This document shows positions 48,077 through 53,421 of a DNA stretch of 64,000 nucleotides, one piece after another (the first letter of the stretch is position 1; the number at the start of each line of letters is the position of its first letter). This stretch comes from Gammaproteobacteria bacterium. Its GTDB lineage: Bacteria; Pseudomonadota; Gammaproteobacteria; Xanthomonadales; SZUA-36. Location of the stretch: assembly GCA_024275935.1 (NCBI GenBank), contig JAJRYF010000064.1, positions 1,098 to 65,097 of the forward strand. The letters run 5' to 3'. Under the pieces are notes generated by a model, which was not told the origin of the DNA, ran no database searches, and saw nothing but the letters and a program-made list of their open reading frames with translations. The position numbers and the translations under genes are program-made.

Positions 48077-48889
48077 CTATACCGTCTGGCCATCGGAATC
48101 AAACAACTCAGCCAATGCTTGGCCGGGGTCTGCAGCGCGCATAAACACCTCGCCTATCAGAAAAGATTTAATTCCGGCTGCTTGCAACCGGTGCACATCG
48201 GCAAGCGTATGAATGCCTGATTCAGATACCAACAGTTGGTCTGCGCTCAGCATTTTGGCAAGTTGAATGCTGTTGTCTAAATCGGTCTCGAAGTTGTGCA
48301 GGTTGCGGTTATTTACCCCAATTAATGGCGACTGCGCTGCCAGTGCAATTTGCATTTCCTGCTCATTATGAACCTCTACCAATACATCCAGACCAATATC
48401 CATCGCTTCAGCCGTAAGATCAAATAACAGCGTATTATCCAGCGCTGCAACAATTAACAACACCGCATCGGCTCCGAGCACTCGGGCTTCATATAGCTGG
48501 TAACGGCCAAGGGTAAAATCTTTGCGTAGTACTGGCAATGCAACCGCGTCCCGTGCCGCCAACAGGAATTTGTCGTGACCTTGAAAAAAATACTCATCGG
48601 TAAGCACGGAAAGGCAGGCCGCGCCTCCATCTGCATAGCTCTGGGCGATTGCTACCGGGTCAAAATCCGGACGAATCAGGCCCTTGCTTGGGGAGGCCTT
48701 TTTGATTTCTGCAATTACTGCACTGCGCTCTGCAGAGACTGCCTTCAATTGCTGGTAGAAACCACGGCAGGCGGGTTGGTCAGCTGTCATCGCCAGCAAC
48801 TCTCGCAATGGCAACTGCCTTTGCCGATGCGCTACTTCATCGGCTTTATGTTTGAGGATTTTATCCAGCACCGAAGCTAAGGCAGTCAT
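48077..48889 (-). CDS. trpC: Indole-3-glycerol phosphate synthase
   Basis: 270 aa, AVIAEIKKASPSKG...LRKDF...NNRNL. Start overlaps the trpD stop. Confidence 0.93.
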   Translation of the reverse strand: MTALASVLDKILKHKADEVAHRQRQLPLRELLAMTADQPACRGFYQQLKAVSAERSAVIAEIKKASPSKGLIRPDFDPVAIAQSYADGGAACLSVLTDEYFFQGHDKFLLAARDAVALPVLRKDFTLGRYQLYEARVLGADAVLLIVAALDNTLLFDLTAEAMDIGLDVLVEVHNEQEMQIALAAQSPLIGVNNRNLHNFETDLDNSIQLAKMLSADQLLVSESGIHTLADVHRLQAAGIKSFLIGEVFMRAADPGQALAELFDSDGQTV

Positions 48890-49911
48890 AGCTTGTTACT
48901 TAGCTCGACTAGCTGCTCAAGCCTGGTCAGGGCGGCGCCAGATTTAAGCACCTTTAATGCCTCGCTCACGCCAGTGGGTAAATCCGCACAAATTCCGGCA
49001 AGATATAGTGCGGCCCCGGCATTTAATCCAATTAAATCTGCTGCGGCACTAACCCGTGGGCTGCTATCTGTGCCTGCAAGTGCGGCGGTAATCAGTTCCA
49101 ACGACTCATCCGCGCCAGCTACCACCAATTCAGTAACCGCTTGCCGCTGGACACCAAAATCTTCCGGCTCAATTGTATATTCAGAGATTTCCCCTGCCCG
49201 CAGTTCAACTACAAAGGTGGCATCCGCCAAAGATATTTCATCCATACCATCATTTGAGTGCACTACCATTACATTGGCAGAGCCCAGGCGCCGCAATACT
49301 TCAGCCATTGGCCTGCACAGTGATTTAGAGTAAACCCCAATCAATTGATTTTTAACTCCGGCGGGATTAGTCATCGGGCCAAGAATATTAAACAGAGTAC
49401 GCACACCTAGAGCCTTGCGGGCAGTGATTGCATGCCGCATAGCACTGTGATGAGCCGGGGCGAACATAAACCCAACCCCGGTTTGTTGTACACATTGCTG
49501 AACTTGCTCGGGGCTAAGATCTAGCCGTAACCCGGCGGCTTCAAGCAAATCTGCGCTACCGCTGCTGCTGGAAACGGCGCGATTACCATGCTTGGCCACC
49601 TTGGCACCAGCAGCTGCCACCACAAAACAGGCGGCAGTTGAGACATTAAATAAATTCAGGCCATCGCCACCAGTACCGACAATATCAATTACATGCTCAC
49701 CAGCAACTGCCACACCAGTTGATAAAGAGCGCATAACTTGCACGGCTGCCTCAATTTCATCCAGACTTTCGCCTTTAATCCGCAAACCAACCAGCAGGCC
49801 GCCAATTTGTGCATCTGTGGCCTTGCCAGTCATTATTTGCTGCATAACCGCAGTCATTTCCGCACCGCTGAGATCAGTTCCAGCGATTACTTTCTCCAAC
49901 GCCTGACGCAT
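48886..49911 (-). CDS. trpD: Anthranilate phosphoribosyltransferase
   Basis: 341 aa with GTGGDG and KHGNRAVSS motifs. Confidence 0.95.
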   Translation of the reverse strand: MRQALEKVIAGTDLSGAEMTAVMQQIMTGKATDAQIGGLLVGLRIKGESLDEIEAAVQVMRSLSTGVAVAGEHVIDIVGTGGDGLNLFNVSTAACFVVAAAGAKVAKHGNRAVSSSSGSADLLEAAGLRLDLSPEQVQQCVQQTGVGFMFAPAHHSAMRHAITARKALGVRTLFNILGPMTNPAGVKNQLIGVYSKSLCRPMAEVLRRLGSANVMVVHSNDGMDEISLADATFVVELRAGEISEYTIEPEDFGVQRQAVTELVVAGADESLELITAALAGTDSSPRVSAAADLIGLNAGAALYLAGICADLPTGVSEALKVLKSGAALTRLEQLVELSNKL

Positions 49912-50492
49912 TAGCTAAACTCCAGGAAGTTACGCAATAAATCGTGGCCATGCTGGGTCAGAATAGACTCCGGGTGGAATTGCACCCCCTCAAGTGGGTA
50001 TTGCTTATGCCGGATTCCCATGATTTCCTCCCGCGAACCATCGGGATTCAGCGTCCAGGAGGTAATTTCCATCTCCGTGGAAAGAGTATCCGGCTGGATC
50101 ACCAAAGAGTGGTAGCGGGTAGCCGTAAACGGGTTTGGAATATCTGCAAACACCCCCCGACCATCATGATGAACATCCGAGGTTTTGCCGTGCATGATTT
50201 TGTCCGCCCTGACGATAGTAGCGCCAAACGCCTGAGCGATTGTCTGATGCCCAAGACAGACTCCAAAAATCGGAATTTTGCCAGCATACTCACGCACCAA
50301 TTGCAGCGAAATTCCAGCCTCATTTGGGGTGCAAGGTCCGGGAGAAATTACAATATGTGATGGTTTAAGCTCACCAACCTGAGCAACTTCCAGATCATCG
50401 TTACGACAGACTTTCACCTCCGCACCCAACTCACCCAGGTATTGCACCAGGTTAAAGGTAAAAGAGTCGTAATTGTCGATCATCAGGATCAT
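49911..50492 (-). CDS. trpG: Anthranilate synthase component II (glutamine amidotransferase)
   Basis: [15 protein letters not shown]..., catalytic GVCLGHQ, and HPES near the C-terminus. Start placed at the ATG at 50492. Confidence 0.92.
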
Positions 50493-50582
50493 ATCTGTAT
50501 CTACCAAGACACCAAATTCAGAGCAGAATTATACCCCTATTCCACGGCAGGAATAAGCCGTGATAAGCCAGCTATGAGTTAA

Positions 50583-50618
50583 AAGCCCGCCACTGCATTA
50601 TTTACCGCATTGATCAGC
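50583..50618. repeat. Direct repeat 1: duplicate of the trpE 3' end (att-like)
   Basis: AAGCCCGCCACTGCATTATTTACCGCATTGATCAGC matches 51932..51967 at 34 of 36 positions. On the minus strand it still encodes LINAVNNAVAGF-stop, against the trpE end LINAVNNAAAGL-stop. Confidence 0.8.
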
Positions 50619-50688
50619 ACTGACAAAGAGACAAGCTGGGGTTATGATTACATAACTAAATAAGTAACAGCAGGGAATTTCATTCAAA

Positions 50689-50838
50689 ATGTTTCAGCTG
50701 GCATCTAACAAAATTTACAGCATTCTCCGGCAGGAAGCTGACTGTACCACAGGGCTTGACTACACCGAGCGGACATCGTGGTTATTGCTCCTTAAATACT
50801 TCAACGTCCTGCAAAAACCCTTCGCCGGAGAACTTTAG
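50689..50838 (+). pseudogene. Fragment resembling the N-terminus of an N6-adenine DNA methyltransferase (HsdM_N-like)
   Basis: A 49-codon ORF, MFQLASNKIYSILRQEADCTTGLDYTERTSWLLLLKYFNVL. The D-Y-x-E-x-x-S-W-L-L-x-L-K-Y pattern is typical of the HsdM/type IIG N-terminal helix, and the ORF stops right after it. Confidence 0.4.
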
Positions 50839-50840
50839 TT

Positions 50841-51563
50841 GTGGAACTAACTGCAGCACAACAACAAACCAAAGAACAGGCTATGGCATTTGCCCGGAAA
50901 GAGAAAAAGGCCATTGCCCGCGAGTTCACGGATAAAGAAAAACACGGCCCTGAAAGCGAACCAGTATCGGTATTTATGGCCGGCTCTCCGGGGGCAGGTA
51001 AAACCGAGGCTTCCATCGCCTTGATTGAGGGTCTTTCAGCAGATGATATGCAAGTTTTACGCATAGATCCAGATGAGTTACGCTGCCTTCTTCCGGGCTA
51101 TACGGGAGCGAATAGTTGGTTGTTTCAAGGAGCTGTTTCTATTTTGGTGGGGAAGATACATGATCTGGTTCTGACACAACAACAGAGCTTTCTTCTGGAC
51201 GGAACCTTGTCAAATTACCATATTGCGGCAAAAAATATCAAGAGATCCTTGAAGAAAGGGCGAGTTGTGCAAATATTGTATGTTTACCAAAAACCCGAAT
51301 TAGCATGGGAATTTGTTTTGGCACGGGAACGATCAGAAGGAAGGCATATCCCCGTTGCACGCTTTATAGAGCAATATTTTGCCGCCAGAAAGGTAGTTAA
51401 TAGCTTGAAAAAAGAGTTTGGCAGAGCTATCCGGGTAGACCTTCTACTGAAAAACACTGATAATTCAAACCGCTTTTATAAAGCGGGTGTTGAGCAGATT
51501 GATTCTCATATTCCAGAAAACTATCGCCCAGATAAACTTGCAGAACTAATTAGATTAAAGTAA
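50841..51563 (+). CDS. Zeta-toxin-family P-loop kinase
   Basis: Walker A is FMAGSPGAGKTE, followed by RIDPDELR and LLDGTLS, typical of the zeta toxin family. The start could instead be the ATG at 50883. Confidence 0.75.
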   Translation: MELTAAQQQTKEQAMAFARKEKKAIAREFTDKEKHGPESEPVSVFMAGSPGAGKTEASIALIEGLSADDMQVLRIDPDELRCLLPGYTGANSWLFQGAVSILVGKIHDLVLTQQQSFLLDGTLSNYHIAAKNIKRSLKKGRVVQILYVYQKPELAWEFVLARERSEGRHIPVARFIEQYFAARKVVNSLKKEFGRAIRVDLLLKNTDNSNRFYKAGVEQIDSHIPENYRPDKLAELIRLK

Positions 51564-51576
51564 TGTCATAAACAAC

Positions 51577-51780
51577 ATGAGTACACTAGTTAATCGCAAA
51601 ACCACAAAAAAACTCAAAACAACACCGTTTTCAGAGTTTATCCGCAACGCCTCTTCCGCCGAGAAGAAGCGGGTGTATTCGCTAGTTCTCAAAAAAGCTT
51701 CTATTCGCCAACAGGAATTAATTGAAAAATCAAAAGCTGATATTTCTGAGGCTGAAAATAATAACTCCGCCGCTGGTTAA
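51577..51780 (+). CDS. Small charged protein downstream of the zeta-like kinase, hypothetical
   Basis: 67 aa, beginning 13 nt after the kinase stop. Lys-rich N-terminal half and acidic tail. No family recognised. Confidence 0.4.
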   Translation: MSTLVNRKTTKKLKTTPFSEFIRNASSAEKKRVYSLVLKKASIRQQELIEKSKADISEAENNNSAAG

Positions 51781-51927
51781 GTCCCAAATATAGGGGGGAA
51801 GTTTCCCGATTTTCTTGTTTTTTCTTCGAAACTACTTTCTTTGCTTGAAAAATATCGATATTCCCTATTATCCCCAACCCCCAGATAACCATAATATGAT
51901 TGTTAACCTATGGATGTATAAATTACC

Positions 51928-53421
51928 TTACAAGCCCGCCGCTGCATTATTTACCGCATTAATCAGCGCCCTACCCTTGCTCAAGGTCTCTTGCCATTCA
52001 GATTCCGGATCTGAATCAGCCACTAGACCGGCGCCAGCTTGTACATGCAATACACCGTCTTTAATTATTGCAGTGCGAATGGCGATAGCAAGATCAGTAT
52101 CGCCCAGCCAGTTGATATAACCTACTGCGCCAGCATATATATTTCGTTTTACTGGCTCTAATTCGTTGATGATTTCCATGGCGCGAATTTTAGGTGCGCC
52201 CGATAAGGTCCCAGCTGGAAATGCCGCGCGAATGGCATCAACCACGCCCAATTCTGGCCGCAACTTACCTTCCACTTGCGAAACGATATGCATTACATGG
52301 GAATATCGTTCAACCAACATCTGCTCGGTGACTTTTACTGAACCGGTTTGGCACACCCGGCCCAGGTCATTGCGGGCAAGATCAATCAACATCAGGTGTT
52401 CTGCGCGTTCTTTGGGGTCTGCCAGTAACTCATCCTCAAAGCGCTGATCAGCGGTGGCATCTTCTCCGCGGGGTCTGGTTCCGGCTATTGGGCGTAGTAG
52501 CATTTCACCTTGTTGAACCCGCACCAATACTTCTGGTGATGAGCCTACAATCTGGGTTCTGGCAGCTTTATCTGCGCTATCACCCAAGTCTAGAAAATAC
52601 ATATATGGCGAAGGGTTCAATGCCCGTAAGGCCCGATATACATCTAGTGGCCGGGCTTTCAGGGGAACACTCATTCGCTGTGATAACACCACTTGAAAGA
52701 CATCACCTGCCATGATGTACTCCTTGCAGCGTTTTACACCTTTAATAAATTCGTCTTTACTGATGCTGTATTTAATCTGGCCTTCATCAAGCTCCGATGC
52801 TGGCGCCGCTTCTGGGTAGGCGGGGGAACCAGAGCGCAGCCGGTAGGCAAGTTGATCCAGACGACGCTGAGTAGTTTCCCAGGCATCCGCTTGTGCGGGA
52901 TCGGCATTAACAATCAAAAACAAACGGCCAGCAAGTGAATCGAACACTGCCAGCTCATTTGATTCCAATAATAGTATTTCCGGGGTATTGAGTTGATCGG
53001 GCTTATCTTCATTGCGTAAACGCGCTTCAATATTACCTACATTTTCATAGCCGAAGAAGCCCACCAAGCCACCTGCAAATGCTGGTAATTCCTTCAGCAC
53101 TGGGGCTTTGACCGCAGCTTGTAATTCGGCAACTTTTTCCAGTGGGTCGGTAACTGTTTCTACAGATACCTGCTGACCATGATGGAATATACTGAATTCA
53201 TTGCCGCTAAATTGATAGCGGCGGGCTACTGGCAGGCCGATAATAGAGTAACGACCCCAGGTTTCACCACCCTCTACCGATTCAAACAAAAATGTATCTC
53301 CACCATCTGCCAGTTTCAAATACACCGAAAGTGGCGTATCCAGATCAGCCAGCACCGAGCGCCATACCGGGATTCGGTTGTAGCCTTGTGTAGCAAGCTT
53401 TTGGAATTCTGTCTTATCCAT
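51928..53421 (-). CDS. trpE: Anthranilate synthase component I
   Basis: 497 aa with chorismate-binding family motifs (GAPKIRAMEII, YAGAVGY, AGAGLVADS). Confidence 0.95.
   Translation of the reverse strand: MDKTEFQKLATQGYNRIPVWRSVLADLDTPLSVYLKLADGGDTFLFESVEGGETWGRYSIIGLPVARRYQFSGNEFSIFHHGQQVSVETVTDPLEKVAELQAAVKAPVLKELPAFAGGLVGFFGYENVGNIEARLRNEDKPDQLNTPEILLLESNELAVFDSLAGRLFLIVNADPAQADAWETTQRRLDQLAYRLRSGSPAYPEAAPASELDEGQIKYSISKDEFIKGVKRCKEYIMAGDVFQVVLSQRMSVPLKARPLDVYRALRALNPSPYMYFLDLGDSADKAARTQIVGSSPEVLVRVQQGEMLLRPIAGTRPRGEDATADQRFEDELLADPKERAEHLMLIDLARNDLGRVCQTGSVKVTEQMLVERYSHVMHIVSQVEGKLRPELGVVDAIRAAFPAGTLSGAPKIRAMEIINELEPVKRNIYAGAVGYINWLGDTDLAIAIRTAIIKDGVLHVQAGAGLVADSDPESEWQETLSKGRALINAVNNAAAGL
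51932..51967. repeat. Direct repeat 2: the functional trpE 3' end
   Basis: AAGCCCGCCGCTGCATTATTTACCGCATTAATCAGC, the partner of 50583..50618. Confidence 0.8.

What the first reader, a model, noticed from the sequence alone, without database searches (positions are those of the whole stretch)
50583..51967. The trp operon is split by a 1.3 kb islet flanked by a 36-bp duplication of the trpE 3' end
The last 36 bp of trpE (51932..51967) recur at 50583..50618 with two mismatches. The distal copy still reads ...LINAVNNAVAGF-stop in frame.

This is the footprint of site-specific integration into the 3' end of a gene, with the element supplying a replacement terminus.

The intervening DNA runs opposite to the trp genes. 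It holds a truncated DNA methyltransferase N-terminus, a zeta-toxin-family kinase and a 67-aa ORF, but no integrase. It is likely a decayed defence or addiction islet that now separates trpE from trpGDC.
Basis: seen in the sequence. Interest (0 to 1): 0.6.

Follow-up and report, generated by a model that had tools for sequence, protein, structure and literature searches.

The report
Selfish kinase cassette splitting trp operon
A 1.3-kb foreign cassette (a zeta-toxin-like kinase plus a small partner gene) lies between trpE and trpG, bracketed by a duplicated 40-base end of trpE. The footprint fits a rare, already described, recombinase-free mode called "insertion with long target duplication", not integrase-mediated integration.

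Summary
**Observation:** confirmed. A 40-nt direct repeat (37/40; 50579-50618 and 51928-51967) equals the trpE stop codon plus its last 12 codons. None is expected by chance, and there are only two copies in the genome.

**Insertion:** real.
- One congener has trpE and trpG 3 nt apart (empty site).
- Three others keep decayed copies of the distal repeat next to the cassette's promoter end, but carry different cargo (S8 protease; MmeI-like restriction-modification (RM) system plus PIN toxin-antitoxin).
- So the scar predates these species and the site is a swap hotspot.

**"Truncated methyltransferase":** it is an hsdM-N::hsdS-C fusion remnant. It travels with the kinase and a conserved small ORF as one unit, with promoter- and terminator-like sites.

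**Wider survey:**
- Of 74 related cassettes, 18 (15 independent sites) are flanked by locus-specific direct repeats of 26-350 nt. Only 1 of 459 control spans is.
- The repeats are often gene 3' ends.
- An Alcanivorax relative gives a clean empty site.
- A second copy in the sister species has only a 7-bp duplication.
- I found no integrase in the islets I annotated, and no conserved cassette ends.

**Verdict:** an old insertion with long target duplication (Nobusato 2000; Furuta 2010), here with toxin-antitoxin-like cargo. Interest is moderate.

The parts
51928..51967 (-). Proximal repeat copy: functional 3' end of trpE (stop codon plus last 12 codons, ...ALINAVNNAAAGL*)
   Evidence: The C-terminal peptide is identical in G001, G003 and G004.
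50579..50618 (-). Distal repeat copy (E40'): non-coding scar of the trpE 3' end, 37/40 identical to the proximal copy
   Evidence: Decayed homologues with indels lie at the same place in G001, G004 and G006.
51928..53421 (-). trpE (anthranilate synthase component I), intact, 497 aa
   Evidence: Pfam PF04715 + PF00425; 95-96% aa identity to G001 and G004
49911..50492 (-). trpG (glutamine amidotransferase). Probable start is ATG 50492 (MILMIDNYD...); the ORF listing extends to TTG 50507.
   Evidence: Pfam GATase; start inferred from alignment with congeners
50493..50578 (-). 86-nt spacer between the distal copy and trpG. It holds the box GGGGTATAATTCTGCTCTGAATTT (50514-50537), identical in four species: candidate trpGDC promoter or leader (inferred).
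   Evidence: alignments. Not called by the consensus promoter scan.
50620..50648 (+). Promoter-like site of the cassette (CTGACA-17-TATGAT, 10/12), directly abutting the distal repeat
   Evidence: The -35 segment (TTGTCAG on the trp strand) is conserved in G001 and G006 next to their scars.
50689..50838 (+). 49-aa ORF: fusion remnant of a type I methylase N-terminus (ILRQEADCTTGLDYTERTSWLLLLKY) with an HsdS C-terminus (LQKPFAGEL*). It ends 2 nt before the zeta start.
   Evidence: PADLOC MTase_I positions 8-43, E=0.003. A 66-aa homologue sits in the same position in G001/L053. A genuine HsdS ending ...LLQRAFSGEL* lies directly before zeta in L075. A decayed copy is in G004.
50841..51563 (+). 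Zeta-toxin-family P-loop kinase, 240 aa, full length, Walker A GSPGAGKT
   Evidence: PF06414 E=1.6e-41. 3344 homologues, mostly 240 aa. AlphaFold pLDDT 88. Top Foldseek hits are PezT, zeta, ng_zeta1 and AvrRxo1.
51577..51780 (+). 67-aa basic ORF with the conserved motif FSEFIRNASSAEKKRVY: obligate downstream partner of the kinase (candidate antitoxin or regulator; function inferred)
   Evidence: The motif is found downstream of zeta in most of about 80 surveyed loci. No Pfam match.
51793..51817 (+). Terminator-like hairpin plus T-tract ending the cassette transcription unit
51818..51927 (-). Remnant of older trpE-downstream DNA: spacer plus a decayed start (about 8 codons) of a DUF2007 gene that is intact in G003 and truncated in G004
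   Evidence: blastn G000-G004 homology to window 51850; alignment; Pfam DUF2007 for the G003 gene

Best explanation
The islet is the residue of an old 'insertion with long target duplication' (ILTD).

**The event (inferred).** Foreign DNA joined into the chromosome at the very end of trpE by a recombinase-independent route. The likeliest route is ligation of a DNA fragment between offset breaks, followed by fill-in. The 40 nt between the breaks (the last 12 codons plus the stop) ended up on both sides of the insert. The proximal copy keeps trpE intact. The distal copy is a neutral scar.

**The cargo.** It carried a self-contained selfish cassette:
- a promoter;
- an hsdM-N::hsdS-C remnant, a fossil of an earlier home inside a type I restriction-modification operon;
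- a zeta-toxin-like kinase;
- a conserved small basic ORF;
- a terminator.

The kinase/small-ORF pair probably acts as an addiction or defence pair that resists loss (inferred, not tested).

**Timing.** The event happened in the common ancestor of at least four species of this genus. Later events exchanged or deleted cargo between the two repeat copies. This genome kept the kinase pair and lost the neighbouring DUF2007 gene. Sister species replaced the pair with an S8 protease or an MmeI-like restriction-modification system plus a PIN toxin-antitoxin pair.

**Consequence for trp (inferred).** trpG-D-C, once translationally coupled to trpE, are now probably expressed from a conserved TATAAT-containing spacer.

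**Shown:** the repeat, the empty site, the shared scar, the variable cargo, the cassette unit, and its recurrent flanking duplications elsewhere.
**Inferred:** the break-and-fill-in chemistry, the toxicity, and the trpG promoter.
For: - **Repeat real and unique:**
- **Empty site:** G005 has trpE TAA-agc-ATG trpG. Most other genera of the family have trpE and trpG 2-30 nt apart.
- **Shared scar:** the distal copy plus the adjoining cassette-promoter sequence is present and decayed in G001, G004 and G006. The cargo differs.
- **No recombinase:** none in any version annotated.
- **Cassette is a unit:** the same hsdM'::'hsdS-zeta-small ORF arrangement is at a second site in sister species G001, 75% nt identity over window 50689-51736. 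The small ORF follows the kinase in most surveyed loci.
- **Flanking duplication is a family trait:** 18/74 loci against 1/459 control spans have a direct repeat of at least 30 nt within 700 nt on both sides (Fisher p about 1e-15). These fall in 15 independent sites with repeats of 26-350 nt. All are locus-specific, with no conserved termini. Many cover the 3' end of a neighbouring gene.
- **Clean empty site:** Alcanivorax G092 has one copy of the roughly 99-nt target that is doubled around the cassette in G042. G093 has the same insertion with 233-nt repeats. A looser empty site exists for the Halomonas locus.
- **Short duplication also occurs:** the second-site insertion in G001 has a 7-bp duplication (TCGATCA) against the empty G004 site.
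- **Literature:** restriction-modification units insert with long, variable target duplications and no mobility genes. One case is a 46-bp repeat overlapping a gene's 3' end (PMC2853133; PMC3874152).
- **Foreign composition:** G+C is low in the islet.
Against: - The insertion chemistry is unknown, in the literature as well.
- The site is not a textbook A-T-cargo-T-B. Between the cassette terminator and trpE lie about 110 nt that are homologous to the trpE-downstream spacer and DUF2007 start of G003 and G004. So either the original cargo was larger (DUF2007 plus cassette) or two insertions happened at the same junction.
- The 86 nt after the distal copy are absent from the G005 empty site.
- The distal copy of this genome is better preserved (37/40, no indels) than those of its sisters. 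This is unexplained; possible causes are gene conversion or a promoter role.
- Only about a quarter of cassette loci show flanking repeats.
- The survey did not screen all 80 loci for recombinase genes further away.
Confidence: 0.6

Rival explanations
1. This is the first reader's model: integrase-mediated site-specific integration. An island whose attP mimicked the trpE 3' end integrated by a tyrosine recombinase. The recombinase gene and most of the island were later deleted, leaving attL and attR as the two 40-mers.
For: - Direct repeats made of a gene's 3' end are classic att footprints.
- Different cargo lies between the same repeats in sister species, as at integrase hotspots.
- G+C is low.
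- Several cassette sites elsewhere lie next to tRNA genes.
Against: - No recombinase in any of the five versions of this locus.
- In at least 12 other sites the repeats enclose only about 1.0-1.25 kb, which is the kinase pair alone.
- Repeat length ranges from 7 to 350 bp and the sequence is locus-specific, with no shared core or termini.
- At tRNA-adjacent sites the duplicated DNA is mostly the downstream spacer and terminator, not the tRNA body.
Confidence: 0.12
2. Homology-driven (Campbell-type or homology-facilitated illegitimate) integration. A circular or linear donor molecule already carried the cassette joined to a 40-nt piece of trpE, for example after imprecise excision in a relative. 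It recombined with the resident trpE end, which duplicated the shared segment. Spread between relatives then occurs by excision between the repeats and re-integration, or by allelic exchange through flanking core genes.
For: - The cassette carries fossils of a previous neighbourhood. The hsdS 3' end sits directly before zeta, and in L075 that very segment is the duplicated target.
- Repeats of 50-350 nt are long enough for RecA.
- Cargo swapping occurs between retained repeats, both here and at the Alcanivorax site.
- trpD and trpC show xenologous replacement, so homologous exchange has acted in this region.
Against: - It does not explain how the first duplication at a new site arises.
- 40 nt, and certainly 7 bp, are poor substrates for RecA.
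Confidence: 0.2
3. The repeat is unrelated to the insertion. It could be a local duplication or a conserved regulatory element, such as a trpG leader or promoter, that merely resembles the trpE end.
For: - A promoter-like site (TTGTCA-18-AATAAT, 50626-50597, minus strand) overlaps the distal copy and points at trpG.
- The copy is unusually well kept in this genome.
Against: - The distal copy is decaying by indels in G001, G004 and G006. A 12-nt deletion removes the AATAAT in G001.
- The distal copy is absent from G003 and G005.
- Identity is confined exactly to the coding end plus the stop codon.
Confidence: 0.05

Closest known systems
Insertion with long target duplication of restriction-modification units (Nobusato et al. 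2000, Gene 259:99, cited from PMC3874152; Furuta, Abe and Kobayashi 2010, PMC2853133)
   Same: - A small gene unit without integrase or transposase.
- Flanked by direct repeats longer than 30 bp and of variable length.
- The repeats are single-copy target sequence in an insert-free relative.
- The repeat overlaps the 3' end of a neighbouring gene, as in the H. influenzae 46-bp cases.
- The same locus can hold alternative units (allelic substitution).
- A link to type I restriction-modification genes.
   Different: - The cargo here is not a restriction-modification system. It is a zeta-like kinase plus a small ORF, with only a 49-aa hsdM::hsdS fossil.
- The event is old and shared by four species, rather than a strain polymorphism.
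- The same cassette can also insert with only a 7-bp duplication.
Integrase-borne genomic islands that target gene 3' ends (tRNA/tmRNA islands; SGI1-type elements in the trmE 3' end). Comparison from general knowledge, not tested against sequences here.
   Same: - Direct repeats made of the 3' end of the target gene.
- The gene stays intact.
- Variable cargo at one site.
   Different: - No recombinase.
- No conserved att core across members of the cassette family.
- Repeat length varies from 7 to 350 bp.
Epsilon/zeta and PezAT toxin-antitoxin systems (PDB 1gvn, 2p5t, 3q8x; ng_epsilon1/zeta1 6epg)
   Same: - Zeta_toxin Pfam domain and Walker A motif.
- Predicted fold closest to PezT and zeta.
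- A small, tightly linked partner gene.
   Different: - Only 14-16% identity to the solved toxins.
- The partner is downstream, basic, and unrelated to epsilon or PezA.
- No upstream antitoxin.
- Toxicity and substrate are untested.
Integrase-less defence-island hotspots between core genes (general concept; Makarova 2011, cited in PMC3874152)
   Same: The trpE/trpG junction holds different defence or addiction cargo in related species and genera.
   Different: Here a target duplication marks the founding insertion. Hotspot models usually invoke only homologous exchange through the flanks.

Membership tests
Insertion with long target duplication (criteria of Furuta 2010) | Insert flanked by direct repeats longer than 30 bp | tested here: met
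   40 nt, 37/40 identical
Insertion with long target duplication (criteria of Furuta 2010) | The repeat sequence occurs once, uninterrupted, in a related genome that lacks the insert | tested here: met
   G005 has a single trpE end followed 3 nt later by trpG. The match is not perfectly clean, because the 86 nt that follow the distal copy here are absent from G005. A clean case for the same cassette family is Alcanivorax G042 against G092.
Insertion with long target duplication (criteria of Furuta 2010) | No mobility gene in the insert; insert shorter than 20 kb; repeat not a multi-copy element | tested here: met
   The three ORFs have no integrase or transposase domains. Spacing between copies is 1349 nt. 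Only two copies of the repeat exist in the genome.
Insertion with long target duplication (criteria of Furuta 2010) | Insert contains both R and M genes (their operational criterion for restriction-modification units) | tested here: not met
   Only a 49-aa hsdM::hsdS remnant is present. The sister G001 holds an MmeI-like restriction-modification gene between the same scars.
Integrase-mediated island at a gene 3' end | A recombinase gene inside or adjacent to the element | tested here: not met
   None in the window islet or in the G001, G003 and G004 versions
Integrase-mediated island at a gene 3' end | A conserved att core shared by members of the element family | tested here: not met
   Flanking repeats at 15 independent cassette sites are unrelated and 26-350 nt long. 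There are no conserved termini.
Epsilon/zeta (PezAT) toxin-antitoxin family | Zeta-type P-loop kinase domain and fold | tested here: met
   PF06414 E=1.6e-41. PezT E=1.3e-4 by sequence. Foldseek top hits are PezT and zeta, TM 0.57-0.64.
Epsilon/zeta (PezAT) toxin-antitoxin family | An upstream epsilon- or PezA-type antitoxin gene | tested here: not met
   The upstream ORF is a restriction-modification remnant. The conserved partner is a downstream 51-67-aa ORF with no Pfam family.
Epsilon/zeta (PezAT) toxin-antitoxin family | Toxicity by phosphorylation of UDP-GlcNAc, neutralised by the partner | not testable with these tools
   Needs expression and enzyme assays
Type I restriction-modification system | Intact hsdM, hsdS and hsdR genes | tested here: not met
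   Only a 49-aa fusion of the HsdM N-terminus and the HsdS C-terminus

The most novel reading that the evidence does not exclude
The zeta-like kinase plus small basic ORF pair is an autonomous, recombinase-free selfish cassette of Proteobacteria. It lands near gene ends and creates target duplications of any length from 7 to about 350 bp, dragging fossils of its previous neighbourhood (here an hsdS 3' end) with it. Perfect 53-88-nt repeats occur in genomes of cultivable genera (a Pseudomonas mandelii isolate and an Alcanivorax MAG). The cassette would therefore be a tractable model for solving the unexplained mechanism of 'insertion with long target duplication', and would extend that mode from restriction-modification systems to toxin-antitoxin-like modules.
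Probability: 0.45. Interest if true: 0.62.

Novelty: new member of a known kind. Interest (0 to 1): 0.42.

Why it matters
**For this genome.** The finding explains why anthranilate synthase genes that are normally translationally coupled are split. It also shows that the split is old, stable and shared by several species. trpGDC must therefore have acquired independent expression.

**More generally.** It adds a widespread, easily recognised cargo (a 240-aa zeta-like kinase with a conserved downstream mini-protein) to the short list of gene units that move without any recombinase and leave long, variable target duplications. The mechanism of this mode is still unknown, about 25 years after its description. 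The survey gives 15 independent sites and two empty-site comparisons, one clean and one looser, that could seed an experimental system.

**For annotation.** A gene-end duplication around an islet is not by itself evidence for an integrase att site.

Tried and rejected
- **Extending the repeat beyond 40 nt.** There is no significant similarity past the stop codon in G000, G001 or G004, nor further into trpE (read).
- **trpE-end repeats at other genera's trpE/trpG gaps.** None found outside the G000/G001/G004/G006 clade. No remnant in the G003 spacer.
- **Conserved termini or inverted repeats of the cassette.** None. The G001 second-site ends show only a weak 8-9/15 inverted match, read by eye.
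- **Strain-level polymorphism in metagenomes.** An exact-pattern scan of the trpE end found nothing. A TrpE protein scan found only relatives of 68% identity or less.
- **Empty-site tests that were not clean.**
  - P. mandelii against G051: the spacer has diverged.
  - P. khorasanensis site: other cargo in the relatives.
  - Pseudomonas sp. 286: no relative holds the site.
- **Recent transposition within genomes.** Single copy in five genomes tested. Highly similar Pseudomonas cassettes are mostly at orthologous sites, so the count was reduced to 15 independent sites.
- **Defence and family libraries.** PADLOC and NCBIfam give no meaningful family for the three ORFs beyond weak MTase_I and PezT hits.
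Full report
**1. The observation**

The trp genes lie on the minus strand:

| Gene | Window coordinates |
|---|---|
| trpE | 51928-53421 |
| trpG | 49911-50507 (probable start 50492) |
| trpD | 48886-49911 |
| trpC | 48077-48889 |

- The repeat finder returns a 40-nt direct repeat at 50579-50618 and 51928-51967, 37/40 identical.
- It has no chance expectation in the window and no third copy in the 2.42-Mb assembly.
- The proximal copy is the trpE stop plus its last 12 codons. The distal copy still reads LINAVNNAVAGF-stop but belongs to no real ORF.
- Similarity ends exactly at the stop codon.
- Between the copies, on the opposite strand, lie a 49-aa ORF, a 240-aa Zeta_toxin protein and a 67-aa ORF. 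G+C is 39-44%, against about 50% in the trp genes.

**2. Is it an insertion, and how old?**

I compared six other species of the genus and 34 further relatives.

- **Empty site.** G005 (TrpE 82% identical) has trpE TAA-agc-ATG trpG. Many other genera of the family also have the two genes 2-30 nt apart.
- **Closest species.** G004 and G001 (TrpE 95-96%) have 4.3-kb and 4.8-kb gaps. G003 has 1.1 kb.

| Genome | Cargo between trpE and trpG |
|---|---|
| G004 | DUF2007 remnant, 1169-aa S8 protease, decayed copy of the 49-aa ORF |
| G001 | MmeI/Eco57I-like type IIG restriction-modification gene, HTH_17, PIN_3 pair |
| G003 | intact DUF2007 gene |

- **Shared scar.** G001, G004 and G006 all keep, just before trpG, a decayed copy of the distal repeat. 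It has a 12-nt deletion, a 1-nt deletion and a larger loss respectively. It is joined to the same sequence that forms the cassette's promoter end in this genome, and is followed by an identical GGGGTATAATTCTGCTCTGAATTT box.
- **Conclusion.** The duplication and the cassette junction predate the split of at least four species. The DNA between the copies has been replaced repeatedly.
- **What is private to this genome.** Pairwise blastn shows the private DNA is about 50827-51849, the kinase and the small ORF.
- **Older DNA next to trpE.** Positions 51818-51927 are homologous to the trpE-downstream spacer and the first codons of the DUF2007 gene of G003 and G004. The original insert was therefore either larger or hit twice.

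**3. What the cargo is**

- **The 49-aa ORF is not a random truncation.**
  - In the sister species G001, a 66-aa homologue (…ILRQEAGCTTELDYTEQTSWLLFLK…LQKAFAGEL*) sits 2 nt before an 80%-identical kinase and a 57-aa partner, at a different site. I equate G001 with GCA_021648125.1, 'Lysobacterales bacterium D96SM.bin.4', because both carry a contig of 32,518 nt.
  - Its head matches the first 43 positions of type I methylases.
  - Its tail resembles the end of HsdS. This rests on my own knowledge of HsdS C-termini and on L075, where a full-length ORF ending …LLQRAFSGEL* directly precedes the kinase inside what looks like a type I operon.
- **The kinase.** It is full length, has the Walker A motif and predicts a zeta/PezT fold.
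- **The small ORF.** It carries the motif FS[DE]FIRNASSxEKKRVY and follows the kinase in most surveyed loci.
- **Transcription signals.** A promoter-like site at 50620-50648 and a terminator-like hairpin at 51793-51807 frame the three ORFs.
- **Function.** Whether the pair is a reversed-order toxin-antitoxin is untested.

**4. How it got there**

I fetched 80 loci encoding relatives of the kinase and compared the DNA on both sides.

- **Flanking repeats are enriched.** 18 of 74 testable loci have a direct repeat of at least 30 nt within 700 nt on both sides. Only 1 of 459 equally long control spans in the same loci does (p about 1e-15).
- **Independence.** After merging orthologous Pseudomonas loci, these are 15 independent sites with repeats of 26-350 nt.
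- **The repeats are locus-specific.**
  - They are gene 3' ends (hrpB 350 nt, hsdS 55 nt, a thiolase-like gene), the whole spacer between convergent genes, terminators, or tRNA-flanking spacers.
  - They enclose little more than the two genes (about 1.0-1.25 kb).
  - There are no conserved ends.
- **Alcanivorax site.**
  - G092 is a clean empty site with one copy of a roughly 99-nt target that is doubled in G042.
  - G093 has the same insertion with 233-nt repeats.
  - Two further species carry other cargo between duplicates of the same target.
- **Halomonas.** A relative gives a looser empty site.
- **Short duplication.** The second-site copy in G001 is a 1435-bp insertion with only a 7-bp duplication (TCGATCA) against the empty G004 site.

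**5. Comparison with what is known**

This pattern has four features: small selfish gene units, no mobility gene, long and variable duplications of unique target DNA that often overlap a gene's 3' end, and alternative units at one locus. It matches 'insertion with long target duplication', described for restriction-modification systems of all types (PMC2853133; PMC3874152). The mechanism is unknown. The authors suggest double-strand breakage.

- The integrase model fails two defining tests: there is no recombinase and no shared att core.
- A Campbell-type or homology-facilitated route remains a live variant. It is supported by the hitch-hiking hsdS fossil and by evidence of homologous exchange nearby.
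- Earlier notes of this scan report the same habit for a hicBA pair and for an HNH-RHH unit. I treat those notes as leads only.

**6. Consequences and verdict**

- trpE stays intact.
- trpGDC has lost translational coupling. It probably uses the conserved TATAAT-containing 86-nt spacer (inferred; the consensus scan did not call it).
It is an insertion with an empty site and polymorphism, but I found no integrase at this locus and no shared att core among cassette sites.
- The insertion mode is already in print. The cargo family and its 24% rate of flanking duplications are new details.
Metagenome scans found no close relatives.

Noticed in passing
window 48077-49911 (trpC, trpD), compared with L033, L034, L051, L052, L253: Phylogenetic discordance inside the trp cluster. 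TrpE and TrpG follow one tree (G000 close to G001 and G004). TrpD and TrpC split into {G000, G003} and {G001, G004, G005, G006}, with only about 70% aa identity between the groups. This looks like a xenologous replacement of trpDC with a breakpoint near the trpG/trpD boundary.
   Followed up: partly
L053 5544-6985 (= G001 contig C1; GCA_021648125.1 JAKITK010000035.1): A second-site copy of the hsdM'::'hsdS-zeta-small ORF unit in the sister species. It is inserted inside the first codons of a MaoC-dehydratase gene with a 7-bp target duplication (TCGATCA). The first base of the insert appears to create a new ATG for the truncated gene. G004 has the empty site.
   Followed up: yes
L157, L158, L159, L160 (Alcanivorax G093, G096, G091, G042): One site at the 3' end of a thiolase-like gene carries, in different species, the zeta cassette (repeats of about 99 or 233 nt), an IrrE/M78-peptidase gene, or a gene for a protein of more than 1500 aa. 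Each is between duplicates of the same target. This is the same cargo-swapping pattern as at trpE.
   Followed up: partly
L075 599-4799: The zeta pair is inserted inside what looks like a type I restriction-modification operon, right after an HsdS-like ORF, with a 55-nt duplication of that gene's 3' end. It is followed by a DUF497/BrnT-like pair and an HsdR-like ORF. Domains were read by eye and not scanned.
   Followed up: partly
window 50597-50626 (minus strand): A promoter-like site (TTGTCA-18-AATAAT, 10/12) overlaps the distal repeat and points towards trpG. It might explain why this genome's scar is better preserved than those of its sisters. In G001 a 12-nt deletion removes the -10.
   Followed up: no
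window 50579-50618 against 51928-51967, and the homologous pairs in L033 and L034: At two polymorphic positions (G[C/T]TGAT and GGG[C/T]TT) each species' distal copy carries the same base as its own trpE end. This hints at gene conversion between the copies or at parallel change. All distal copies share GATC against GATT in trpE, which argues for a single origin (read by eye).
   Followed up: no
L036, L037, L039, L043, L046-L050 (other genera of the family): The trpE/trpG junction holds 0.6-9 kb of unrelated cargo in at least nine other genera, without trpE-end repeats. Examples are small Phd/RelE-like ORFs plus an acetyltransferase-like ORF in G009, and large efflux-like genes in G024. These were judged from ORF sequences only and not scanned.
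   Followed up: partly
L034 8256-11459 (G001 islet): The MmeI-like type IIG gene starts within the MmeI_N domain (profile positions 92-181). It is preceded by a separate 71-aa ORF, so it may be frameshifted or 5'-truncated.
   Followed up: no
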